From: Candidatus Helarchaeota archaeon
GTDB taxonomy: Archaea > Asgardarchaeota > Lokiarchaeia > Helarchaeales > RDOG01
Assembly (NCBI GenBank): GCA_029838215.1
Contig: JALGVI010000018.1
Span: forward strand, 1 to 64,000
Length of the DNA stretch: 64,000 nt
Direction: 5' to 3'
A program made the position numbers and the translations under genes. Positions 31,340-63,894 of the stretch are shown piece by piece. Every line of letters starts with the position of its first letter. Position 1 is the first letter of the stretch. The notes beneath the pieces were generated by a model. It was not told where the DNA came from and searched no databases. It was given only the letters and a program-made list of their open reading frames with translations.

Positions 31340-31720
31340 ATGTCTGATTTCTTTTCTCTCCTCGTTCCATTTTTGGATGTCACGTTGAGCATTGTTAAAA
31401 TGGTAAAACAAGGCGATCTTGCAATGAAAAATAAGTGTTCAACTGAATACATGGACGCAGCAGCGATCTGCATGATGCATCCCAACTTAATAAAACGCTT
31501 GGGAATGAAAGAAGGGAATGTCGAACTTCAAACGGATCATGGACGTGTGGTTCTAAAAGCGACCTCGAATCCCGAAGAAGAAGTTCCTGAAGATCTCGTA
31601 TTGGTGCCATATGGACCTTGGGCTCAAGAACTAACGAATACGTCCAAAGATGGATTGATCATGAAGAATTTGAAGGCAAAGATTCGCACGTCGAAGGAAG
31701 AAATTCAGAAATATTGGTGA
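31340..31720 (+). CDS. FwdD-like molybdopterin-dinucleotide-binding domain protein (divergent)
   Basis: ICMMHP...LG...V.L.T.HG.VVL...VPYGPWA. The canonical TGRT..QG reads VKMVKQG. Confidence 0.75.
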   Translation: MSDFFSLLVPFLDVTLSIVKMVKQGDLAMKNKCSTEYMDAAAICMMHPNLIKRLGMKEGNVELQTDHGRVVLKATSNPEEEVPEDLVLVPYGPWAQELTNTSKDGLIMKNLKAKIRTSKEEIQKYW

Positions 31721-31732
31721 GGCGGATTCCGG

Positions 31733-32209
31733 ATGAGTCCATTGACGACCTTTCAAATCTACAAATTACTTCCTAAGACAAATTGCAAGAAATGTGGTGA
31801 ATCTACTTGCATGTCTTTTGCAATGAAACTCTTGAATCGGACTCAAGAACTTCAAAATTGCACTCCCCTGTATGATGAACCTCAATACGAAAAAAACCGA
31901 AACGCGTTAGAAGAACTTTTTGCTCCAATGCTTCGAAGTGAAATACATCCTTCGGGCGTGTCGATAGATCCTGACTTATGCACGGGTTGTGGAAACTGCG
32001 TCACGGCTTGCCCTCCGAATATTCGAGCAGTACCTGAGTGTGGTAAAGGAATTGGACCCAATTCTGAAGATGTTATCTTCAAGATCGATAATGGCAAAGT
32101 GAAAGTCCTAAAATTAGACAGATGCCGTCGGTATGAACCCCCTAAAACGGCTTGTCGCATCTGTGAAACATATTGCTATTCTAAAGCAATTACAATCGTG
32201 GGGACATGA
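31733..32209 (+). CDS. Fe-S protein: N-terminal CxxC-x4-C FeS module fused to an FwdG-like 2x[4Fe-4S] ferredoxin
   Basis: LPKTNCKKCGESTC, CTGCGNCVTACP, and C...CRICETYC. Confidence 0.8.
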   Translation: MSPLTTFQIYKLLPKTNCKKCGESTCMSFAMKLLNRTQELQNCTPLYDEPQYEKNRNALEELFAPMLRSEIHPSGVSIDPDLCTGCGNCVTACPPNIRAVPECGKGIGPNSEDVIFKIDNGKVKVLKLDRCRRYEPPKTACRICETYCYSKAITIVGT

Positions 32210-33474
32210 GAATGGGTGATCTTAAAAAAATTATATGCGTGGGTTGTTCGCTTCTATGCGATGACATCATGATTGAATTAAAGGATAAAGAATTGGAACA
32301 TGTATATCATGCTTGTAGTAAGGGATATTATTATTTAAAATCTCTAAACGACTCAAAACGCCACTTAAAGTCTCAACTCAAAGATGGTAATGAATACAAG
32401 GATCTTGAAATCCAAGATGCCATTTCAAAAGCCGCGGAAATGATAAAAAGTTCCAAGCACGTCCTGATCTATGGACTAAATAATTCTTCTAATGAAGCAA
32501 TCGGAACAGCCATTGTACTTGCAGACAAGATAGGGGGTTCTATAGACAGTTCTGCAACATATTATAAAGGAATGGCCATTCAACAAATCCTGTCGAAAAA
32601 ATTGCCCGTGGCTAATTTCAAGGACATCATGGATAAAGGCGATACAATTCTTTTTTGGGGAACGAATCCCAGCAGTTCCCATCTGCGTCTTCTAAGTAAA
32701 TATGTCGTTCTAACTCGTGGTGAACTCACGCAGAAGGGAAAAGAAGATCGTAATGTCGCATTAATTGACATTTTTAAGACACAAATGCGACGCCTTTCAG
32801 ACATCTTCTTGCGTGTTAATCCCGGTGAGGATGACCAATTACTCCAAGCATTGATAGACCTGATCGATGGGAAACCTCTACAAGCAGAAAAAATTGCAGG
32901 AATCCCGAAATCTGAAGTTGAAGACCTTACTAGCACGTTAAAAAGAATTGATTTCGGAGCAATCTTTTTTGGTTCAGGGTTATTTAATTCAAATCTACAA
33001 AACATCTCATCATTAATTACTCTTGTAAACAAGCTAAATTCCGATACAACAAAAATCTCAATGATTCCCACTGCAGTTCTGACAAATACCGTGGGTTTTT
33101 GTAAGATAATGCTTGACAAGACAGGATCGGTGAATTACGATTTTGATACAAAATCTCCTAAATCTTTGATAGAAGAGGTAGGTAACGGGAACGTGGACTT
33201 GCTCATTTTAGTTAATTCCGATCCATTCGAACATCTTCCCGCATCAATTACAGAAAAACTCAAAGAGATCCCCATCATTTCATTAACAACTCACCCCGAT
33301 CTCTCCACGAAACATGCTGAATTAATCATTCCAATCTCATTGTTTGGTCTTGAACACGGTGGAACCCTGAATCGAATGGATTTCACGGAGATTAACGTGC
33401 AAGGTTGTCTGGAGCCGCCCGAAAAAGTATGGTCGGAAGAAAAGATATTAAAAGAAATCATGAACAAGCTTTAA
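32206..33474 (+). CDS. FwdB-like protein lacking Mo/W-ligand residues
   Basis: CVGCSLLCDDI...HAC, WGTNPSSSHLR, GEDDQLL, FFGSG, SDPFEHLP, GTLNRMD. The active-site VCHG reads YYKG. Confidence 0.85.
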   Translation: MRMGDLKKIICVGCSLLCDDIMIELKDKELEHVYHACSKGYYYLKSLNDSKRHLKSQLKDGNEYKDLEIQDAISKAAEMIKSSKHVLIYGLNNSSNEAIGTAIVLADKIGGSIDSSATYYKGMAIQQILSKKLPVANFKDIMDKGDTILFWGTNPSSSHLRLLSKYVVLTRGELTQKGKEDRNVALIDIFKTQMRRLSDIFLRVNPGEDDQLLQALIDLIDGKPLQAEKIAGIPKSEVEDLTSTLKRIDFGAIFFGSGLFNSNLQNISSLITLVNKLNSDTTKISMIPTAVLTNTVGFCKIMLDKTGSVNYDFDTKSPKSLIEEVGNGNVDLLILVNSDPFEHLPASITEKLKEIPIISLTTHPDLSTKHAELIIPISLFGLEHGGTLNRMDFTEINVQGCLEPPEKVWSEEKILKEIMNKL

Positions 33475-52328: not shown

Positions 52329-54272
52329 GTGACATTCAAGAACGTGATAATGCTTAAACCGCAAGGAGCAGCGGGATTAGGTATAATTGTTGGTGCACTC
52401 ATCCCGCATGCGTGTGAATATTTGGCAGGAGCAATTGAAAAACAAGTCGATAAAGTAGAAGTTATCGACCGCGATTATGATCATTTTTCGGATAAATGGT
52501 ATCTAAAATTTCTTAAGAAATTCAAACCCGATGTTATTGGAATTTCCATAGAAGCCACGGAACATAATGATGGTCTTCGCTTGGCCCGATTATCTAAAAA
52601 ATTCAATTCCGACATAAAAATAATCGTTGGGGGCTTTCAACCAACTGCCATTCCTGAGGAATTTTTAAGGCAAAAAAGCGTGGATATCGTCGTTCGAGGT
52701 GAAGGGGAAGAAACATTACGCGAGCTCATATCAAAAGAAAGTGCAAAAAATGTTCTTGGTTCTTCCTTTAAGGAAGATGGACAATTCATTCATAATCCCG
52801 ATCGTCCACTCATTGAAAATCTCGATGTCTTGCCTTTTCCCGCACGACATTTAAGAAGATACGATTATCATTTTTCATGGGCATTAAAAAAAGCCGCGGA
52901 TCAAGTTTCATGGAGCCGAGGTTGTTGGGGAAAGTGCACGTTTTGCAATGAGCCTCGAATGAGCCGAAGCAGAATACGTCACAGATCTCCAGAAAACATC
53001 ATTAAAGAATTGCAATCCATCACTGCACTACACGAGTATAAACCCATCCACATACTAATTTCAGACCCAAATATAATGGGGAGAACTGAAGAAGACGCAA
53101 GATGGATAGAACGTCTTTCAGATTTAATCATTGACTTTCAAAAGGACAAGCGCGTTGACATTTCATTTAATGCTATGGTACGCTGTGATGCCGTGGCACG
53201 ACATCCCGAAATAATGAAAAAGATGATTCAAGCGAATATTGCAAGATTTTGCATGGGAATTGAGTCAAATGATCCCGAAGACTTCAAAAAAACATTAAAA
53301 GGTTCGCTTAGTCATGATATCCAATATAAAGCCATACACACGATTCGACAATACGGTGGACAAGCAGGAGGAACCTTTGTCATTGGCTTACCTTGGCATA
53401 AAAAGGAAGAAATGATCAAGCTACCCTTATATGCAAAAGAACTCGAATTGATGTATTCGGCATACGGGATTGCCACGCCGTTTCCCGGGTCTGATTTCTA
53501 CGATGAAATGAAGCAAAAAGGCTTGATATACGAAAAAAATTGGAGCTATTACGACGAAATGCACGGAACGTTCAAGATTGACGGAATAAAAAAGGGGGAA
53601 ATGGAAGTCCTGAATGCCATTTGCTTGGGACGGTTCTACACGCCCGACACGCTCTTGGATCAAATGAAAATAGAGCGAATTCGAATTGGCAAGGATAAGA
53701 TCCATATTTTAGATTTCGTCAGTAGTCGAACTAATGGCATGTTTTTTATGGCTCATGGAGGATTGGGATTACGGAAGCGTGAATTCTTGCGGGACTCCAA
53801 GTATTTCTTCCAAGCACAGGCTCTTGATGGAGAGATGATACGAAAACGCACTAGCATTTCAATAAAAAAAGGCGGATTGAAAGCAAGTGAGATTCTCGAG
53901 ATGCGTAACCTGCTCAGAGCAATGGGAAATCAGAAGGTTCAGATTACAATAACAAATTTTGGACGTCCCCTAACCAGCTACATATTGAAGTCAAATAATT
54001 ATGAAATGGAATACATTGAAACGGTTCTGGGAATGTTAAAAGACTCAATAACAGCCCAATTTTTCATTGACATTAACGATTTAACCATAAACACGCTTGA
54101 GGGAATTCTCCTGTTCTTTTATCGGGTTCTCTTGAAACCGTTCTATCATTTTGAAAAAGGCATTATTTCAACGATTAAAAGATGGGCTTACCAAGGGCGC
54201 ATGATCATTGCCACGGCTCTCTTGGGGATTGAATTCCTTAAAAGAAAATGTCTTGGACCTTTTAGAAAATAA
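52329..54272 (+). CDS. Cobalamin-binding radical SAM enzyme with long C-terminal extension
   Basis: B12 domain (PDVIGIS, IIVGGFQPT, DIVVRGEGE), SRGCWGKCTFC, GIES, TPFPGS. Confidence 0.93.
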   Translation: MTFKNVIMLKPQGAAGLGIIVGALIPHACEYLAGAIEKQVDKVEVIDRDYDHFSDKWYLKFLKKFKPDVIGISIEATEHNDGLRLARLSKKFNSDIKIIVGGFQPTAIPEEFLRQKSVDIVVRGEGEETLRELISKESAKNVLGSSFKEDGQFIHNPDRPLIENLDVLPFPARHLRRYDYHFSWALKKAADQVSWSRGCWGKCTFCNEPRMSRSRIRHRSPENIIKELQSITALHEYKPIHILISDPNIMGRTEEDARWIERLSDLIIDFQKDKRVDISFNAMVRCDAVARHPEIMKKMIQANIARFCMGIESNDPEDFKKTLKGSLSHDIQYKAIHTIRQYGGQAGGTFVIGLPWHKKEEMIKLPLYAKELELMYSAYGIATPFPGSDFYDEMKQKGLIYEKNWSYYDEMHGTFKIDGIKKGEMEVLNAICLGRFYTPDTLLDQMKIERIRIGKDKIHILDFVSSRTNGMFFMAHGGLGLRKREFLRDSKYFFQAQALDGEMIRKRTSISIKKGGLKASEILEMRNLLRAMGNQKVQITITNFGRPLTSYILKSNNYEMEYIETVLGMLKDSITAQFFIDINDLTINTLEGILLFFYRVLLKPFYHFEKGIISTIKRWAYQGRMIIATALLGIEFLKRKCLGPFRK

Positions 54273-57548: not shown

Positions 57549-59183
57549 TCATGCTGCAGATTTTTGTTTTTCAAGCTCTTCCTGCTCGATTTTCTTGAAG
57601 AAGTTGACGACTTCATCAGGATCTCCGACAATTCGTAGCTTACCGTCTTTCATGAGAGCCGCCCGATCACATACTGCAAGAATGAAATCAATGTCGTGAG
57701 AAATTATCAAGTATGACTGTTGCAAGTTATCGCGAGCCGCCTTGATGGATTTGACGATTGTCATGCGAGTTAATGGATCTGCGGTTCCCGTAGGTTCATC
57801 CAAGACGACGATCTTGGGTTCTTGAATTAGCACTCGTGCGATTGCTACTCTGTGGCGCTCGCCTTCACTCACATTATCGGGATATTTATAGATCAGTGAA
57901 TCCATTTCCTTATTGGTGAAATTCACTGCTCGCAATGCATCGTATGCCTTCTTGGTCTTATACTCATCAGCCATGGGTTGTTCAATAGCACCCGTGAGGT
58001 TCTCCAAGATCGTCAGATGTGGATAGAGGCAATATTCTTGATGGAGCATTCCCATGTATTTTGTTGCCCTGCCTCTTTCTTCGGGACCATCAACGGACAT
58101 GTCAACCCATTCATCACCGATCTTGACGATTATTTTACCATAGGATATTTTCTTCTCACCCATCATCATGCTGACGAGAGAAGTCTTTCCGGATCCCGAT
58201 ACGCCAACAAGTCCGAAGATTTCACCTTCATTAATATGAAATGTTATGTGATTTACGGCTTTCACAATGCCGCGATCATGCGTGTAATAAGTTTTCTGGA
58301 CATCTTCGACCTTGATTAATTCCTTATCAAGCTTCCGTCGTTCAATGATGACTTCTCCCATTCGATCCATGAAGTCTTTGGCACATTTTGCAGGGTCCCC
58401 TTTGGAAACGATTTCACCATCTTCGAGGAGAATGGCTTCTTCTGAAAGTTCTACGACAGCTTCGGGCCAATGGGATGTGACCAAGAGGGTTAACCCTTCA
58501 TCTTTCACGGCTTGTTTCATGACATCATGAACAGCTACTGCTGTCAAAGGATCAAGAGTTCCAGAAGGTTCATCTGCAATGAAGAGAAGAGGATCTCGTG
58601 CGAGACACATTGCAAACACGGCGCGCTGTTTTTCGCCACCGCTTAGATCACGTGCTAAATGGCTTTCACGATGCCCTAGCCGAACCATGTCGATGAGGTT
58701 TGCTGCTTTATTTTCAAGTTCCTTTTCGGGAAAATTGATTTTTTTCAGCACGTTTTTAAGATTTTCAAGGACTGAAATTTCACCGTAGATGCCAAACGTC
58801 CGCTGGAACATGATGGAAATTCTATTGTAAAGAGCGTAAGCCAGAGGTGTAGATTTTTCACGTTCTTCCCAATAATCAACTTCTTTCGCCACGAGATTAG
58901 TGGCACAACGTGGACATTCCTGTCCTACCTTGCTTGGATAATCAACATGCCAACAATTCTCACATACAGCTATATTGTAGATGATTTTTCCTCGAGTAGG
59001 CTTGTAGTCCTTTGTGCCGCGAATCGCATTCATCAAGACGCTCTTACCTGAGCCCGATTTACCAAGAATGCCAAAACTTTTTCCTTCCATTATTGAGAAC
59101 GAAATATCTTTGATTGATGGTTCTCCACGAACAAATTCCTTTGTAACATTATCTACAATTAGAAAAGGTTTTTTCTCTACCAT
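57549..59183 (-). CDS. atwA: Methyl-coenzyme M reductase system component A2 (dual-ATPase ABC protein)
   Basis: GKSGSGKS, Zn motif CENC...CPRC, IMFQRTF, LSGGEKQR, DEPSGTLD. The second domain has GVSGSGKT, SEGERHR and DEPTGT. Confidence 0.93.
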   Translation of the reverse strand: MVEKKPFLIVDNVTKEFVRGEPSIKDISFSIMEGKSFGILGKSGSGKSVLMNAIRGTKDYKPTRGKIIYNIAVCENCWHVDYPSKVGQECPRCATNLVAKEVDYWEEREKSTPLAYALYNRISIMFQRTFGIYGEISVLENLKNVLKKINFPEKELENKAANLIDMVRLGHRESHLARDLSGGEKQRAVFAMCLARDPLLFIADEPSGTLDPLTAVAVHDVMKQAVKDEGLTLLVTSHWPEAVVELSEEAILLEDGEIVSKGDPAKCAKDFMDRMGEVIIERRKLDKELIKVEDVQKTYYTHDRGIVKAVNHITFHINEGEIFGLVGVSGSGKTSLVSMMMGEKKISYGKIIVKIGDEWVDMSVDGPEERGRATKYMGMLHQEYCLYPHLTILENLTGAIEQPMADEYKTKKAYDALRAVNFTNKEMDSLIYKYPDNVSEGERHRVAIARVLIQEPKIVVLDEPTGTADPLTRMTIVKSIKAARDNLQQSYLIISHDIDFILAVCDRAALMKDGKLRIVGDPDEVVNFFKKIEQEELEKQKSAA

Positions 59184-59195
59184 ATCAAGACCTCC

Positions 59196-59696
59196 TTATG
59201 GGAATCCCACAGGCCAAAATTTCGGTCTGTCCTCCTTTGTTTTCGAGATCTCCTTACCCTGAGCAACTTCAAGAATATCACCTTCATCAAGCAAGGCGAT
59301 CATATTCCCATAGATTTCTGCTCGCCCTAAAAAGGCAGATAGCGTGAAATCTTGTGTTCCTAAAAGGAATTTTGCCAAATCGTAATAGTCAAATCGAAAG
59401 ATCAAATGCGGTTCTACATCAGGAATTTCTGGCGTTACAGAGGTGGGACTTATCATGAAGCTCAGTCTCTCGATTGTTTTCTTTTTAGGATGAACTATCT
59501 CAAGAAGAATGAGACGATGTGGTATCATGCTAGCAATTTTAACGGCATCAGGCGTGATGATGGCCTGATCAAGCATGTAATCCATGAAGAGCATGAGTCC
59601 AGCAGGTTCCGTATCAGACTTTTGTCTGATCCAAGAAATGTCATGCCACCATTTATCCTTGAATTCGTCTTCGTACCATGCTTTCTCTTCACTCAT
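59196..59696 (-). CDS. SCP2 (sterol carrier protein 2)-like lipid-binding protein
   Basis: PHLIFRFDYYDLAKFLLGTQDFTLSAFLGRAEIYGN resembles the SCP2 C-terminal pattern pD.t.....df..l..G.......af..G...i.Gd. Confidence 0.6.
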   Translation of the reverse strand: MSEEKAWYEDEFKDKWWHDISWIRQKSDTEPAGLMLFMDYMLDQAIITPDAVKIASMIPHRLILLEIVHPKKKTIERLSFMISPTSVTPEIPDVEPHLIFRFDYYDLAKFLLGTQDFTLSAFLGRAEIYGNMIALLDEGDILEVAQGKEISKTKEDRPKFWPVGFP

Positions 59697-61459
59697 TCTT
59701 TGACCTCCTCTGCACCTTTTATTAAAGATTCTTTTGGATTCTTAAAATTAAACGTGAGACTTGGATCGGCAAATGCGGCTTTTACGAATGGAGATATGAC
59801 CCATGGATCTCCACGCCCCAATGCAGCACAATAAGCAAGGCTAACCTTGGCGGGTGCATATCCAAATGTTTTTGCATTATAAGGGTTGCGTAGACCCTGT
59901 AATTCCGCTAAACCACCTTCTTCGAGTCGTAATGAGCATGAAGCTGCCATGTCAATATGAGCTGGCATGTCAAATCCACTAGTTCCAGTTCTAAGCCACC
60001 CTTCACGAATGAGAATCCCGCGAGTATATGCAAGACCCCAATCTCCTACTTTTGAGCTTCCGGTAAGAAGAGCTGCAACATTTCCACCGAGACATGACAA
60101 CATGAATGTCAGTTGATTCCCTGAGAAATATTCTGTCACGGTATTATACTTTTCAATTCGTTCCATCGCCGTAATGACGACGTTCTCGATGACCCATCGA
60201 ATGGATTTCCACATGCTCGGAACTAGATGCTTTTGCTTTGATAGAATTCGCGTGAAGAACTTGTGAATGATTTCGTTGTACATTGCCATGAATTCTTCAT
60301 ACGCATCGCCGATGATCAAGCTCATTAGAAATTGGGTGCCAAATCCGATACTGCCCAGTTTTTCTTGATCTAGCCAGAATTGCTCCGTCAAAACAGGAAC
60401 GATAACGCCGAGACAACCAATTGTATTTTCGAGGTATTTCTGTGAGAGTTCTTGGTCTTGAGCTATTTCAAGGAATGGTTTTGCAGGAAGCTCAGCATCA
60501 CCTTGGCAAATATCTGCAAAAATACCATATGGAATGTTACCGATCTGGTTTGTTTCACCTGCAAGCAATATTCGCTCTTGTTTTTTTACGGTGTTTGCTA
60601 ATTCTGCTAAAGTGCTCGTTGTAGACATGCGATAAGTTGATTGAAGAGCAAGACAAGCCTGCATTCCTGACCAGATGGGAGCAATACCTCGAAGAATAGA
60701 AGGTGTTCTTGCCACGACATAAATGTTATCTCCCAGAGCTTCTTTGATTTTTATGGCCCTGCTTTCATGAAAGTTCTTATCAATATCTATTATGAATCTT
60801 GGATCTACCATTTCCTTTACTTCATCGGCACCGGTTAGAACCTTTACGTAACCATCTTTTGTCAATCTTGGATTAATTTCGTCCAACTTATCAAGTAGGG
60901 AAGCTCCCCCTCCAATATTATGAGAGTAAGTCCGGAGAAATTCATTAACGGTAGTTGGAGTGACTTCTTTGTTTGCACGTATTTGTACGACGTGATGAGG
61001 AATGTCCAAGTTGTAGATGGATGTTCGAAGAACATCATTGTAAAGATCCATTAAGGCTTTATTATTGATAATATTGAGTTGGTCTGGTTCAATCTCAGCA
61101 CCAGTTCCTGAGATAATTCCACGAACCATCTGGTCTTGACCGATAGGAGATCCAACTGCTCGATTATATCCCGGGATTTTCCGTTCAATGGCGATTTGAA
61201 TTCCTGCTTCTTGGAATTTATTCTTAAGATAACTCTGATGAAAACCCTTCCGCATGTACATTGAGAAATCGGATTCTTCCGTTGGTTCCATGAATTCGTA
61301 CATTTGTTCAAATGTCTGCCACATTTTGGTTTCCTTTTCTAATGGCAAGAAATCACGGAGTTTAGCCACGGCGGCTCGAAGATATTGACTAGCCTTTGCA
61401 GTTTCCTCCATCTTAAGGACATCTGCGGGTAATTTTCCTTTTTTTAATGGTCCTGCCAT
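59693..61459 (-). CDS. mcrA: Highly divergent MCR/ACR alpha subunit homologue
   Basis: RKIPGYNRAVGSPIGQ, EVTP, YVKVLTG, WSGMQ, PYG.FAD.CQ, EEGG, RGDPW..SP.VK.AFADP.L.F.F all align with McrA. Confidence 0.93.
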   Translation of the reverse strand: MAGPLKKGKLPADVLKMEETAKASQYLRAAVAKLRDFLPLEKETKMWQTFEQMYEFMEPTEESDFSMYMRKGFHQSYLKNKFQEAGIQIAIERKIPGYNRAVGSPIGQDQMVRGIISGTGAEIEPDQLNIINNKALMDLYNDVLRTSIYNLDIPHHVVQIRANKEVTPTTVNEFLRTYSHNIGGGASLLDKLDEINPRLTKDGYVKVLTGADEVKEMVDPRFIIDIDKNFHESRAIKIKEALGDNIYVVARTPSILRGIAPIWSGMQACLALQSTYRMSTTSTLAELANTVKKQERILLAGETNQIGNIPYGIFADICQGDAELPAKPFLEIAQDQELSQKYLENTIGCLGVIVPVLTEQFWLDQEKLGSIGFGTQFLMSLIIGDAYEEFMAMYNEIIHKFFTRILSKQKHLVPSMWKSIRWVIENVVITAMERIEKYNTVTEYFSGNQLTFMLSCLGGNVAALLTGSSKVGDWGLAYTRGILIREGWLRTGTSGFDMPAHIDMAASCSLRLEEGGLAELQGLRNPYNAKTFGYAPAKVSLAYCAALGRGDPWVISPFVKAAFADPSLTFNFKNPKESLIKGAEEVKE

Positions 61460-61469
61460 GATTTTTCAC

Positions 61470-62279
61470 CTACTGATCGTTCACTAAATCGGGCTTGAAT
61501 CCTCCAAGTATTCGTAAATAAGAAATTCTTTCAAATAAGATAAATAATTCTGAACGATTTTTGTATATGTTATAATCTCCTCGATACATCACGTTTACTG
61601 CAGCCAAATCTTGCTTGTCCATGCCAAAACCCAAAGAAATGGGTTTGTCTAATGTTTTTGCATCCATGTCTCTAGTATAAAAAATATAGCCCGAGTCAAA
61701 ATCAAGCTTTGAACGACGCCGCGGGTCAAATACAACTTCAACTTCATCGAGGCGGTGGGCATATCCTTTAGGATCAATGGAGCGCAGGGTATTACGAACC
61801 GTATCAAACACCTCGGTTTCTATTAAGGGTTTGACAGCCGCTTCTACATCACGTTCTCTCATTTCAAGAAGAGTCGTATCTGCATTTTCAACTACATCAA
61901 CACCACGGAACCGATTAAAGTACATCCTCTGTCGGAGCACGGGACCAAGCGGAGCCTTCAATGAATCGGTAAAACTCGCAAATTTCATTCGATCTCCTTC
62001 TTCAGCTCCTGGTGTTGGCACGACCAGCTCTTTTATGGGGTCATATTTTTCCATTAGTTCCATGAGTGGTGGATGGATTGAAGAATAAAGACCCCCTGCA
62101 AAACGATGACCTAGTAAAGTAACAACATTATCATCTGGAACGTTTCTAATCTTGACTAAACGCTTCTCGGGATCCATGATCTTCCTTCTACGGGCAGAAC
62201 TTCCATCACTTCCCGGGTAAAATTGACGCGCTGCCTTTTCTTTTGCCTCTACTAATTTTCTACGGTCTGACATTGGCAT
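61470..62279 (-). CDS. mcrG: Divergent MCR/ACR gamma subunit homologue
   Basis: QFYPG, LLGHR, HPPL, GA..GDR, RFRG.D, E.RERD.E, ETEVFD, FD..RR, GGF. Confidence 0.93.
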   Translation of the reverse strand: MPMSDRRKLVEAKEKAARQFYPGSDGSSARRRKIMDPEKRLVKIRNVPDDNVVTLLGHRFAGGLYSSIHPPLMELMEKYDPIKELVVPTPGAEEGDRMKFASFTDSLKAPLGPVLRQRMYFNRFRGVDVVENADTTLLEMRERDVEAAVKPLIETEVFDTVRNTLRSIDPKGYAHRLDEVEVVFDPRRRSKLDFDSGYIFYTRDMDAKTLDKPISLGFGMDKQDLAAVNVMYRGDYNIYKNRSELFILFERISYLRILGGFKPDLVNDQ

Positions 62280-62290
62280 TTTTCTTCACC

Positions 62291-63655
62291 TCAGAGTTTA
62301 ACCTCCTTAGCCGCCTCGGCGACTTTCTTCATTGGTTCTTTAAACAATGGTTCAACTTCTCGAAGACGGAAGAAGACAGAGGACGTGTTGGTGGGCTTTT
62401 TATAAGTCGTTCCCGAGTCTAATGAAATGGCGGCTGCGATACAAGGAGCCATAAATGCAGAGTGGCGAAGGAATTCGCTATCCATTGAATAACTCCCGAT
62501 ATCTCCTTCATCGCCTAAAAGAGAGTGTGTATATAATGCTAGACCTAATCCTGCACCCTGCACTCTTCCAGCATCAGGATCAGGTAACCCTCCTGCTTCA
62601 ATGGAGAGTAGATCACTGAATCCTGAAAAAACAGAAGTAACAGACTGAGCAGCCCGACTTGCCCCTGTATTTACAATTGTAGCCGCTAAAAGTCCAGCAC
62701 AAGAATAAGCATTCCATTTTGCATAATCCTTTGTCTTGTACAGTCTAAAGCCCGAGAATAACTTGCTCGGATATGCTCGTCCATGTCGAACGATGACCTT
62801 ATCTTCAAATCCAAAACGAAGTAAATTTCCAATGACGTCTCCAACGGTTCCATCTTTTGACTCCGAAATAAGATCGTATAACAAGTTATCACCATTAAAA
62901 CCCTGATAAGCCAACCCGAGCAGGTAATACCGTTCAAACCAACCAATGGCATTACCTAATTCGAATTGTGCTGCATGTTCTAAAATGCTCGTAAGAGCAA
63001 TGGCATCAAAAGTTCGCTTATCGGTAAGGGCACAAATATGATTGAATAATGTTGACTTTAAATCAAGACCCATGCTCGCAATTAAGTGAGGAGGTTTCAA
63101 AAGTGTATAGACCGCCCATTCTGAGGAATTATCTAAAGGATACTTACCGAATACGGCGTTCTTAAGAATCCCGCAACCATCAGGATCTGAAATTGGTGTT
63201 ATGTTAAATACTTCGCTAATTGCCTGCATGAGAGCCACGCCGGGCACGCTGGAGACAACGGTCCTAGAACCTGCCTTATTCAACCGATTAGTTGGAATCT
63301 GAACGATCATTACATCGTTGCCCGGCAAGAAACTTACTGATGAATCGTCATTTTCAGTCAATTGGATTTTTTTCTTCACCTTTTCGCCTATGACCTGAGC
63401 CTGTTCCACGATCTCCCAATCACGTGCATGCCACGGCATGAATACGTCCTTCTCTTGCGCAACCGAATGACCAACATTACCTGTTCTTAACGTTTCTTCT
63501 AATCGCTTTAAGTCAATGAAAGTAGTTCGCTTAAAATAATCAATAATTTTTATCATGTAAGGGTTAAGCAGGGGATTTAATGATTCTATGGAAACGTCCT
63601 CAGTAATGCATTTCCCCATATCGTCATAAATGTCAATTTTATCTTCGTATTTCAT
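62291..63655 (-). CDS. mcrB: Divergent MCR/ACR beta subunit homologue
   Basis: DKIDIYDD.G, NPL.NP, ALTSILEH.AQFELGNAIG.FER..LLGLAYQG.N.DNL, WNAY..AG.LAA, PCIAAA..LD.GT. ATG at 63655 preferred. Confidence 0.94.
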   Translation of the reverse strand: MKYEDKIDIYDDMGKCITEDVSIESLNPLLNPYMIKIIDYFKRTTFIDLKRLEETLRTGNVGHSVAQEKDVFMPWHARDWEIVEQAQVIGEKVKKKIQLTENDDSSVSFLPGNDVMIVQIPTNRLNKAGSRTVVSSVPGVALMQAISEVFNITPISDPDGCGILKNAVFGKYPLDNSSEWAVYTLLKPPHLIASMGLDLKSTLFNHICALTDKRTFDAIALTSILEHAAQFELGNAIGWFERYYLLGLAYQGFNGDNLLYDLISESKDGTVGDVIGNLLRFGFEDKVIVRHGRAYPSKLFSGFRLYKTKDYAKWNAYSCAGLLAATIVNTGASRAAQSVTSVFSGFSDLLSIEAGGLPDPDAGRVQGAGLGLALYTHSLLGDEGDIGSYSMDSEFLRHSAFMAPCIAAAISLDSGTTYKKPTNTSSVFFRLREVEPLFKEPMKKVAEAAKEVKL

Positions 63656-63663
63656 TTTACTTC

Positions 63664-63894
63664 TCACTCCTTAATGCCCTTTAAGTACTCATCTCCGCAT
63701 TTTGGACACTCGTATTCCATCACTGCCATGTCAGGAGGACCCCTCCAAAAACAGGAAGGACATTCTATATCATTCGCTTTCTTTTTCATTCGCCAAAGAG
63801 GTGAATGCCCGACAGCACACGATGGACATACAGGGACTTTCGTGAATTCGGCTTCATCGCCTTTGAACCCGCATTTAGTACACTCATATTGCAA
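63664..63894 (-). CDS. Small four-CxxC Zn-ribbon protein heading the mcr-like operon
   Basis: CTKC, CPSC, CPSC, CPKC. TTG start after a GGTGA SD. Confidence 0.85.
   Translation of the reverse strand: MQYECTKCGFKGDEAEFTKVPVCPSCAVGHSPLWRMKKKANDIECPSCFWRGPPDMAVMEYECPKCGDEYLKGIKE

What the first reader, a model, noticed from the sequence alone, without database searches (positions are those of the whole stretch)
59693..63655. An intact MCR-family complex that has lost F430, CoM and CoB-binding residues in all three subunits
Seen, by-eye alignment with M. marburgensis numbering. Alpha: PGAAVVQEHM becomes GGGASLLDKL (Ni axial ligand Q147 to L, ~60893). AKHAE becomes VKKQE (methyl-His257 lost). The LPVRRARG loop with R270/methyl-R271 is deleted. 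FTQY becomes FGTQF (Y333F). RLGFYGYDLQDQCG becomes RTGTSGFDMPAHID (D450 and C452 lost, G445 kept). AMNVGH becomes AKTFGY (N481 lost), and the C-terminal PAGER tail is absent. Beta: SFFSHSIYGGGGPG becomes ALYTHSLLGDEGDIG (Y367L, ~62516, glycine loop made acidic), and H379 is S. Gamma: AGTLSGRQ becomes VVENADTT in a gapless block (CoM-sulfonate R120 to T, ~61875), and VHGHSL becomes PKGYAH. Yet all ORFs are full length, tightly spaced, each preceded by an SD, and the structural motifs are conserved. Known: alkane-activating ACRs vary at pocket residues such as alpha 330/333/443/444, but to my knowledge they keep Q147, beta Y367 and gamma R120. Inference: purifying selection on the fold but not the chemistry, meaning a repurposed MCR scaffold (new cofactor or reaction, ligand carrier or sensor, or regulatory partner of an active ACR).
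Basis: partly seen in the sequence, partly recalled or inferred. Interest (0 to 1): 0.94.

Follow-up and report, generated by a model that had tools for sequence, protein, structure and literature searches.

The report
Derived MCR-like operon in Asgard archaeon
An Asgard (Helarchaeales) archaeon carries one intact, selected copy of the methane/alkane enzyme MCR. Its cofactor pocket is rewritten and no longer conserved, and the genome lacks the usual MCR activation genes, so it probably no longer runs the textbook reaction. A 2022 review already flagged part of this.

Summary
**Observation: confirmed.** Examples are alpha Q147L, gamma R120T and beta Y367L.

**The locus.** It is a six-gene operon on the minus strand of a Helarchaeales genome: Zn-ribbon ORF, mcrB, mcrG, mcrA, an SCP2-fold gene and atwA (component A2). 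It is the only MCR set in that genome.

**Placement.** The alpha subunit is one of the two most changed sequences of an Asgard-only offshoot nested inside the alkyl-CoM reductases (ACRs). I call this offshoot the DA clade.

**What is ordinary.** Several "losses" are normal for ACRs: Y333, Y444, N481 and C452.

**What is specific to the DA clade or this sub-lineage:**
- alpha Q147L, R225I, H257K and deletion of the R270/R271 loop
- beta Y367L and H379S
- gamma R120T

**Not decay.** pN/pS is 0.08-0.20 with synonymous sites saturated.

**Pocket constraint.** Pocket segments are strongly conserved in MCRs and canonical ACRs, at 0.3-0.6 of the protein-average entropy. In the DA clade they are 1.2-1.35 times the average.

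**Genome content.** Genomes holding only DA-type copies lack McrC, Mmp7 and a bona fide ComDE, but keep A2.

**Prior work.** Lemaire & Wagner (2022) already noted Leu at the axial position and "drastic substitutions" in Helarchaeota/Lokiarchaeota sequences.

**Verdict.** A new variant of a known kind, probably neofunctionalised. Its chemistry is unknown.

The parts
63664..63894 (-). 76-aa double CxxC (zinc-ribbon or rubredoxin-like) ORF directly upstream of mcrB. TTG start, with its stop overlapping the mcrB SD region.
   Evidence: Sequence read. Homologues lie next to DA-type operons in L085, L086, L087, L092 and L005, and in Bathyarchaeota BA2. It is the only copy in the genome. The JGI gene call gives just 41 aa.
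62291..63655 (-). mcrB-like beta subunit, 454 aa from ATG 63655 (the ORF also opens at GTG 63667). Carries F361L, Y367L (62516-62518), H379S and an acidic GDEGD loop.
   Evidence: Pfam MCR_beta_N and MCR_beta at 3.7e-34 and 4.3e-68. NCBIfam TIGR03257 scores 348 bits, below its 516 cut-off. PDB alignment, column table, SD.
61470..62279 (-). mcrG-like gamma subunit, 269 aa. Carries R120T (61875-61877), H156K and H158Y.
   Evidence: Pfam MCR_gamma at 1.5e-62. TIGR03259 scores 191 bits against a 172 cut-off. Gapless alignment to 3pot_C, column table.
59693..61459 (-). mcrA-like alpha subunit, 588 aa. Carries Q147L (60893-60895), R225I, H257K, an 8-aa deletion removing R270/R271, Y333F, F443T, Y444S, D450A, C452I, M480K and N481T. 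It has no PAGER tail.
   Evidence: Pfam MCR_alpha_N at 1.3e-55; the C-terminal domain scores 23 bits, below its cut-off. TIGR03256 scores 274 bits against a 768 cut-off. PDB alignments, clade alignment, column table, tree.
59196..59696 (-). 166-aa SCP2-fold protein. Its ATG overlaps the mcrA stop (ATGA). It belongs to a family found directly downstream of acrA in ACR operons.
   Evidence: No Pfam or NCBIfam hit. The AF2 model has pLDDT 84. Foldseek top 24 PDB hits are all SCP2 proteins, best E 3.7e-6. VIA-align gives Z 10.1. Homologues sit next to acrA in Syntrophoarchaeum, Bathyarchaeota BA2, Hadarchaeota and Helarchaeota loci, and none was found in the MCR loci fetched.
57549..59183 (-). atwA, MCR component A2 (double ABC ATPase), 544 aa. 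It is the last gene of the operon.
   Evidence: TIGR03269 scores 674 bits against a 517 cut-off. It is the only A2 in the genome. It has the same position in DA-type loci L085-L088 and L093. It is 91% identical to the orthologue in L085, against 79% for alpha.

Best explanation
The operon encodes a neofunctionalised member of the MCR/ACR family. It belongs to an Asgard-only offshoot of the alkyl-CoM reductases, called the DA clade here. The query and its 79%-identical relative P0006 are its most changed members.

**Shown.**
- The alpha, beta and gamma subunits are intact, co-translated and under purifying selection.
- The segments that hold F430, CoM and CoB in MCR and canonical ACR have lost their special conservation.
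- The organism lacks the McrC/Mmp7 module, which delivers electrons for Ni(I) activation, and lacks recognisable CoM synthesis.
- The A2 ATPase and an SCP2-fold protein remain welded to the operon.

**Inferred.**
- The complex still assembles as an MCR-like hexamer whose buried pocket is opened by A2 using ATP.
- It handles a hydrophobic alkyl or lipid ligand handed over by the SCP2-fold protein.
- It does not carry out the canonical methyl/alkyl-S-CoM + CoB-SH chemistry on Ni(I)-F430.

Whether any tetrapyrrole is still bound is open.
For: **Residue changes.**
1. Substitutions were confirmed against solved MCR.
2. Canonical ACRs (Syntrophoarchaeum, BA2, Hadarchaeota, Hel_GB_A) keep alpha Q147, beta Y367, beta H379, gamma R120 and gamma H156. 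The DA clade changes them in a graded series. Gamma 120 runs R, then K, then T; beta 367 is Y in canonical ACRs and F, G, I or L across the DA subclades.
3. The tree places the DA clade (16 sequences, SH-aLRT 100) inside the ACRs on a stem of 0.54 substitutions per site. Position 147 switched between Q and L at least 3 times.

**Selection.**
4. Against the 79%-identical orthologue, pN/pS is 0.165 (A), 0.195 (B), 0.134 (G), 0.118 (SCP2) and 0.080 (A2), with pS near 0.8, which is saturated.
5. Entropy of pocket blocks relative to the protein mean, for alpha/beta/gamma: MCR 0.29/0.35/0.53; canonical ACR 0.54/0.40/0.64; DA 1.35/1.19/1.31. Overall divergence is similar across the three groups. Within DA subclades the alpha ratio is still 1.02-1.35.
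6. At about 77% A2 identity, alpha is 76% identical in a canonical Helarchaeota pair but 55-59% in DA pairs.

**Genome content.**
7. The three genomes with only DA-type copies (G000, G004, G005; 93-94% complete) lack McrC and Mmp7. The four others have both, and all seven have A2.
8. ComDE scores 205-227 bits in G001, G002 and G006. G000 has only an 80-bit split TPP decarboxylase inside a lipid-headgroup cluster, and no ComA.

**Operon.**
9. The B-G-A-SCP2-A2 order is kept in L085-L088, and the A-SCP2-A2 part in L093, whose contig starts inside mcrG. The SCP2 fold is supported.
Against: - A2's only known role is activation of Ni-F430 MCR. Its strict retention fits an enzyme that is still F430-dependent.
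- F430 is held largely by backbone contacts. G445, W226, M229/Q230 and Q400 are kept here.
- HemB and CfbD are missing in 6 of 7 genomes of the order, including holders of canonical ACRs plus McrC. Cofactor scavenging is therefore plausible, and the absence of cfb genes says little.
- The co-occurrence pattern rests on 7 related MAGs. G002 has McrC/Mmp7 but only a DA-type copy was assembled (82% complete).
- High pocket variability could reflect adaptation to different bulky substrates rather than loss of cofactor binding.
- No structure, expression or biochemical data exist for this protein.
Confidence: 0.5

Rival explanations
1. It is still a working F430-dependent alkyl-thiol reductase, an unusual ACR. 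Leu at position 147 would leave the nickel without a protein axial ligand and retune its redox potential. The remodelled pocket would take a bulky hydrophobic substrate, delivered by the SCP2-fold protein, and perhaps other thiol cofactors. F430 would be scavenged, and A2 with unknown electron donors would keep the enzyme active.
For: - A2 is retained, in the operon, and is the most conserved gene.
- The SCP2-fold gene is shared with ACR operons from lineages that include proven alkane oxidisers (Syntrophoarchaeum).
- The active ethyl-CoM reductase already tolerates a non-Gln (Met) axial ligand, and Lemaire & Wagner suggest Leu may tune reactivity.
- G445, Q400, K256 and the WSxMQ motif are kept.
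- A new Lys at alpha 480 appears exactly where gamma R120 is lost, in the query and P0006. This may be a relocated positive charge.
- Canonical-ACR holders of the same order also lack HemB/CfbD, so scavenging is the rule there.
- The genome keeps Hdr and H4MPT-pathway genes according to earlier notes (not re-tested).
Against: - Cofactor-contacting segments of all three subunits evolve at or above the protein average, unlike in canonical ACRs.
- The axial position flips between Q and L at least 3 times.
- The CoM anchor gamma R120, the CoB anchors alpha R225/R270, and both flanking Tyr are gone.
- McrC and Mmp7 are absent from all three DA-only genomes.
- No ComA or bona fide ComDE is present.
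Confidence: 0.35
2. It is a decaying relic: an ACR operon that lost its function after the accessory genes were lost and is drifting toward pseudogenes.
For: There are many radical substitutions at formerly invariant sites. Accessory genes are lost. Alpha evolves faster than in canonical ACRs.
Against: - All six ORFs are intact, with SDs and tight coupling.
- pN/pS is 0.08-0.20 with saturated pS.
- The same operon is kept across lineages that are only 45-60% identical.
- It is the sole MCR-like copy in three 93-94% complete genomes.
- New motifs such as beta GDEGDIG are conserved between 61-79% identical orthologues.
Confidence: 0.04
3. The apparent losses are an artefact of alignment or assembly: a by-eye misalignment, a chimeric MAG or a non-standard genetic code.
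For: Some Asgard lineages recode stop codons, a caveat raised in PMC9118554.
Against: - The key blocks are gapless and flanked by invariant anchors.
- The same protein is encoded on contigs from two JGI samples.
- The 105-kb contig carries Asgard-type Arf/Roc GTPases on both sides.
- All frames are open under table 11.
Confidence: 0.01

Closest known systems
Helarchaeota/Lokiarchaeota MCR homologues discussed by Lemaire & Wagner 2022 (Biochemistry 61:805, PMC9118554), and the 'Hel clusters' of McrA of Zhao & Biddle 2021 (PMC9723726)
   Same: Same Asgard-specific lineage. P0016, from a contig labelled ZHAO22-1, is 48% identical to the query alpha. It has Leu at the axial-ligand position, 'drastic substitutions' at cofactor and coenzyme residues, and the same operon with A2.
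   Different: The query and P0006 go further than the members compared here. They add gamma R120T (others have R or K), alpha R225I/V, K instead of Q at position 149, and loss of the PAGER tail. An 8-aa deletion removing R270/R271 is shared only with P0008/P0009. Neither the pocket rate shift, nor the co-loss of McrC/Mmp7/ComDE, nor the SCP2-fold gene was found in the papers I could search.
Canonical alkyl-CoM reductases (ACRs) of Ca. Syntrophoarchaeum, Bathyarchaeota BA2, Hadarchaeota and Helarchaeota Hel_GB_A
   Same: The DA clade nests within them. Shared pocket changes relative to MCR are Y333 lost (V or unaligned in ACRs), Y444A/S, N481T/S, C452 to an aliphatic residue and V482A. They also share the SCP2-fold gene downstream of acrA, and A2 is nearby in Helarchaeota loci.
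   Different: Canonical ACRs keep alpha Q147, beta Y367, beta H379, gamma R120 and gamma H156, and their pocket is conserved at 0.4-0.6 of the protein mean. In this order their genomes hold McrC and Mmp7. They are 32-40% identical to the query alpha.
Ethyl-CoM reductase of Ca. Ethanoperedens thermophilum (PDB 7B1S)
   Same: It is the only solved ACR and is a precedent for a non-Gln axial ligand (Met) in an active enzyme. All three query subunits hit it (E 7.5e-56, 9.5e-64, 1.2e-46).
   Different: Met can still coordinate nickel, while Leu cannot. Per PMC9118554, ECR shows only a few substitutions at the CoM and CoB sites.
Methyl-CoM reductase of Methanothermobacter marburgensis (PDB 1MRO, 3POT, 5A0Y)
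   Same: Full-length homology of alpha, beta and gamma (E 9e-67, 3e-93, 4e-51), with the same domain order and many structural motifs.
   Different: The axial Gln, both active-site Tyr, the CoM Arg, the CoB Arg/His anchors and all modified residues except the G445 and Q400 positions are replaced or deleted. There is no mcrC or mcrD in the operon or the genome.

Membership tests
MCR/ACR superfamily (homology) | Three homologous subunits alpha, beta and gamma encoded together | tested here: met
   Pfam MCR_beta_N/MCR_beta, MCR_gamma and MCR_alpha_N are all above cut-off. Full-length PDB hits. BGA order with gaps of 10-11 bp.
Coenzyme-B sulfoethylthiotransferase (EC 2.8.4.1) equivalogs, NCBIfam TIGR03256/03257/03259 | Score above the curated equivalog cut-off | tested here: not met
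   Alpha scores 274 against 768. Beta scores 348 against 516. Only gamma passes, at 191 against 172.
F430-dependent MCR/ACR | Axial nickel ligand at alpha 147 (Gln, or Met in ECR) | tested here: not met
   Leu189, codon CTT at 60893-60895. Position 149 is Q in the other DA subclades but K here.
F430-dependent MCR/ACR | CoM sulfonate anchor gamma Arg120 | tested here: not met
   Thr135 in a gapless block. It is R in all 13 MCR and 9 canonical ACR gamma sequences compared, and K or R in the other DA members.
F430-dependent MCR/ACR | Tyr pair flanking the CoM thiol (alpha Y333, beta Y367) | tested here: not met
   Phe and Leu. Alpha Y333 is also lost in canonical ACRs, but all but one of them keep beta Y367; P0029 has Phe.
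F430-dependent MCR/ACR | CoB phosphate/carboxylate anchors alpha R225, K256, H257 and R270 | tested here: not met
   R225I, H257K and R270 deleted. Only K256 is kept.
F430-dependent MCR/ACR | Active-site segments more conserved than the rest of the protein | tested here: not met
   The entropy ratio is 1.19-1.35 in the DA clade against 0.29-0.64 in MCR and ACR.
F430-dependent MCR/ACR | Actual binding of F430 and Ni(I) chemistry | not testable with these tools
   No F430 ligand is offered for co-folding. The AF2 model of alpha alone was poor, at pLDDT 56.
MCR activation system | Component A2 present | tested here: met
   TIGR03269 scores 674 bits against a 517 cut-off, and the gene is in the operon. 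A2 is present in 7 of 7 genomes of the order.
MCR activation system | McrC and Mmp7 (carriers of the [8Fe-9S-C] cluster) present | tested here: not met
   There is no PF04609 or PF09886 hit in G000, which is 94% complete, and no phmmer hit with ACR-linked queries. Both are also absent in G004 and G005.
F430 / CoM supply | cfbC/D, hemB; comA or comDE in the genome | tested here: not met
   There is no Oxidored_nitro, ALAD or ComA hit. NifH-family hits are only 24-28 bits. The sulfopyruvate decarboxylase model scores only 80 bits against a 221 cut-off. Caveat: HemB and CfbD are missing order-wide except in G006.
SCP2 (sterol carrier protein 2) fold, for the 166-aa ORF | Alpha/beta SCP2 fold with a hydrophobic tunnel | tested here: met
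   Foldseek probability 1.0 and E 3.7e-6 to SCP2 proteins. VIA-align Z 10.1, rmsd 2.7 Å over 108 residues. The Pfam SCP2 model itself gave no hit. Ligand binding was not tested.

The most novel reading that the evidence does not exclude
The DA-type complexes of Helarchaeales are MCR-fold proteins that no longer use F430, CoM or CoB at all. On this reading the ancient methane/alkane enzyme scaffold has been recruited, together with its A2 ATPase and an SCP2-fold carrier, for a different task on hydrophobic molecules. That task could be a new cofactor or reaction, or ATP-gated binding and transfer of alkyl chains or lipids. It would be the first cofactor-independent or re-cofactored branch of the MCR family.
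Probability: 0.35. Interest if true: 0.88.

Novelty: new variant of a known kind. Interest (0 to 1): 0.66.

Why it matters
MCR and its alkane-activating relatives are the only known enzymes that make or break the C-H bond of methane and alkanes anaerobically. All characterised members use Ni-F430, CoM and CoB. mcrA genes in Asgard MAGs are routinely read as evidence for alkane oxidation.

This lineage suggests that reading is unsafe. In three of seven Helarchaeales species genomes the only mcr-like operon has a pocket that is no longer constrained, and the activation and CoM-synthesis genes are missing.

If the complex is still catalytic, it defines a nickel site without a protein axial ligand and probably new thiol partners. 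If not, it is a repurposed MCR scaffold. Either outcome changes how mcrA-based surveys and models of Asgard metabolism should be interpreted, and it gives structural biologists a defined target.

Tried and rejected
1. **Complex prediction, alpha plus the SCP2-fold protein.** No verdict, with scores 0.11 and 0.00. This counts neither for nor against binding.
2. **AF2 model of alpha alone, from an 18-sequence alignment.** pLDDT was 56, too poor for fold search or pocket inspection, so it was not used.
3. **The look-up of sequencing runs for the operon.** No run was listed, so there is no information on expression.
4. **NG86/YN00 dN/dS.** dS could not be estimated because synonymous sites are saturated. 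I report raw pN and pS instead, so pN/pS is only an upper bound on omega. The near-identical strain L004 has too few differences to help.
5. **PF08245 (Mur ligase) as a CfbE proxy.** There was no hit, but the control did not ring for M. acetivorans, so the test is uninformative.
6. **ComA.** Absent, but M. acetivorans also lacks it, so this is weak evidence on its own.
7. **YcaO.** Absent in all 7 genomes of the order, so it does not discriminate.
8. **Class-level search.** No MCR was found outside the 7 Helarchaeales genomes among 161 Lokiarchaeia-class genomes. The co-occurrence analysis could not be enlarged.
9. **"Regulatory partner of an active ACR".** Rejected for this organism because it has no second MCR/ACR set.
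10. **Simple decay and misalignment.** Both rejected; see the rival explanations.

Full report
**1. What is there**

On the minus strand at 57549-63894 lie six co-oriented genes:
- a 76-aa ORF with four CxxC motifs (63664-63894)
- mcrB-like (62291-63655)
- mcrG-like (61470-62279)
- mcrA-like (59693-61459)
- a 166-aa ORF whose ATG overlaps the mcrA stop (59196-59696)
- atwA, component A2 (57549-59183)

Gaps between the last five genes are 11, 10, -4 and 12 bp, and each start has a GGAG/GGTG-type SD.

Pfam recognises all MCR domains. The NCBIfam equivalog models score far below cut-off for alpha (274 against 768) and beta (348 against 516). A2 passes clearly, at 674 against 517.

The flanks carry Arf/Ras/Roc GTPases, and the best relatives are Helarchaeota/Lokiarchaeota MAG proteins. 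The genome is 3.6 Mb and 94% complete, and this is its only MCR set.

**2.

HMMER alignments to M. marburgensis MCR I (3POT numbering) give these changes.
- Alpha: Q147L, R225I, H257K, an 8-residue deletion covering R270/R271, Y333F, F443T, Y444S, D450A, C452I, M480K and N481T.
- Beta: F361L, Y367L, H379S, and GGGG changed to GDEGD.
- Gamma: R120T, H156K and H158Y, in gapless blocks.

**3. Where it belongs**

A tree of 44 alpha sequences places the gene in a 16-sequence clade (SH-aLRT 100, stem 0.54 substitutions per site). This clade nests inside the alkyl-CoM reductases, next to the canonical Helarchaeota, Bathyarchaeota and Hadarchaeota ACRs. I call it the DA clade.

It contains sequences from the Costa Rica Margin Helarchaeota MAGs. 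Zhao & Biddle 2021 described three Helarchaeota McrA clusters.

Lemaire & Wagner 2022 already wrote that some Helarchaeota/Lokiarchaeota sequences have Leu at the axial-ligand position and "even more drastic substitutions" at cofactor and coenzyme residues. The core observation is therefore partly published.

**4. What is ordinary and what is special**

Column tables give three tiers.

| Tier | Residues |
|---|---|
| Already changed in canonical ACRs | Y333, Y444, N481, V482, C452, Q400 |
| Kept by canonical ACRs but changed in the DA clade | alpha Q147, beta F361, beta Y367, beta H379, gamma R120, gamma H156 |
| Extreme state, in the query and its 79% relative P0006 | gamma R120T, alpha R225I/V, K at position 149, no PAGER tail |

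The DA changes are graded. Gamma 120 runs R, then K, then T. Beta 367 is Y in canonical ACRs and F, G, I or L across the DA subclades. The 8-aa deletion is shared only with P0008/P0009.

Position 147 switched between Q and L at least three times on the tree.

**5. Selection**

Against the orthologue in L085, pS is 0.77-0.83, which is saturated. pN is 0.06-0.15, giving pN/pS of 0.08-0.20 for all five genes. This excludes decay.

Constraint has moved, however. Pocket blocks are alpha 141-150, 225-234, 255-259, 320-333, 395-402, 440-453 and 478-484; beta 358-385; gamma 112-122 and 153-160. Their entropy relative to the protein mean is:

| Group | alpha | beta | gamma |
|---|---|---|---|
| MCR | 0.29 | 0.35 | 0.53 |
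| Canonical ACR | 0.54 | 0.40 | 0.64 |
| DA clade | 1.35 | 1.19 | 1.31 |

Overall divergence is similar in the three groups. Within DA subclades the alpha ratio stays at 1.02-1.35.

Relative to A2, alpha evolves much faster in DA pairs than in a canonical pair. It is 55-59% against 76% identical at about 77% A2 identity.

**6. Genome context**

| Gene or family | G000 result |
|---|---|
| McrC | absent |
| Mmp7 (DUF2113) | absent |
| DUF2102, DUF2112 | no phmmer hit |
| CfbD | absent |
| NifH/CfbC | only 24-28 bit hits, no true homologue |
| HemB | absent |
| ComA | absent |
| ComDE | only an 80-bit split TPP decarboxylase in a lipid-headgroup cluster |

Only seven of the 161 class genomes searched hold MCR, and all seven are in this order.
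- G001, G003 and G006 hold canonical ACRs. G002 probably does too, since it carries three A2 copies and an activation cluster. All four have McrC and Mmp7. G001, G002 and G006 also have a strong ComDE hit.
- G000, G004 and G005 hold only a DA-type copy, are 93-94% complete, and have neither McrC nor Mmp7.
- All seven keep A2.

HemB and CfbD are absent from six of the seven, so tetrapyrrole auxotrophy is order-wide. It is not specific evidence for loss of F430.

**7. The partners**

The 166-aa ORF has no family hit. It folds confidently (pLDDT 84) into an SCP2 fold (Foldseek E 3.7e-6; VIA-align Z 10.1).

Homologues sit directly downstream of acrA in Syntrophoarchaeum, Bathyarchaeota BA2, Hadarchaeota and Helarchaeota loci. 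None was found in the MCR loci fetched. I found no paper linking SCP2 to ACRs.

This points to a hydrophobic ligand.

**8. Reading**

The complex is functional and selected, but the canonical F430/CoM/CoB site is no longer what selection protects. The genome has also shed the Ni(I)-activation and CoM-supply genes.

I rate the explanations as follows:
- 0.50: a neofunctionalised MCR scaffold that A2 opens and that handles a hydrophobic ligand passed by the SCP2-fold protein
- 0.35: an atypical but still F430-dependent ACR
- 0.04: decay
- 0.01: artefact

**9. Limits**

- There are no expression data.
- There is no usable structure of alpha, and no verdict on SCP2-alpha binding.
- The co-occurrence rests on seven related MAGs.
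- Pocket blocks were defined from MCR knowledge. The canonical ACR clade serves as the internal control for that choice.

Noticed in passing
window 59196-59696 (-); L005, L006, L008, L010, L011, L014, L015, L085-L089: A family of roughly 165-205-aa SCP2-fold proteins lies directly downstream of acrA in ACR operons of Syntrophoarchaeum, Bathyarchaeota, Hadarchaeota and Helarchaeota. None was found in the MCR loci fetched. It has no Pfam or NCBIfam model, and no paper in the searchable library links SCP2 to ACRs. It may be a general alkane or alkyl carrier of ACR systems.
   Followed up: partly
window 63664-63894 (-): A 76-aa ORF with four CxxC motifs (two zinc-ribbon or rubredoxin-like knuckle pairs) and a TTG start sits immediately upstream of mcrB. 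JGI calls it as only 41 aa. Homologues lie beside DA-type operons and in Bathyarchaeota BA2.
   Followed up: partly
window 52329-54272 (+): A 647-aa protein with B12-binding and radical-SAM domains lies about 3.3 kb from the operon. It is of the class that C-methylates MCR residues in methanogens. It was not seen in the neighbourhoods fetched for the other DA-type loci (L085-L088). Its role is unknown.
   Followed up: no
G000:C115:4338-5430 (L094:2338-3430, -): A split two-subunit TPP decarboxylase (168 + 198 aa) scores 80 bits to sulfopyruvate decarboxylase and 63 bits to phosphonopyruvate decarboxylase. It sits in a cluster with an archaetidylinositol-phosphate-synthase-like gene and a sugar-phosphate nucleotidyltransferase. 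This may be a phosphonate or sulfonate lipid-headgroup pathway rather than CoM synthesis.
   Followed up: partly
order-level genome searches (G000-G006): Six of seven Helarchaeales species genomes lack HemB and CfbD, including genomes with canonical ACRs and McrC/Mmp7. The whole order therefore appears to depend on scavenged tetrapyrroles (F430 and B12). Only G006 (5.8 Mb, 10 contigs) has both genes.
   Followed up: partly
G002 (C15, C226, C247): This genome has three A2 genes. One is in the DA-type operon, one lies next to McrC/Mmp7, and one contains an in-frame TAA. Only one mcrA was assembled, so further ACR sets are probably missing from the 82%-complete MAG.
   Followed up: no
window 31340-33474: An earlier first-reader note (e1-5531938) reports an fwdD-fwdG-like-fwdB cluster whose FwdB has lost the Mo/W-ligating Cys. 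If correct, this is a second 'fold kept, chemistry changed' case of a methanogenesis-type enzyme on the same contig. I did not check it.
   Followed up: no
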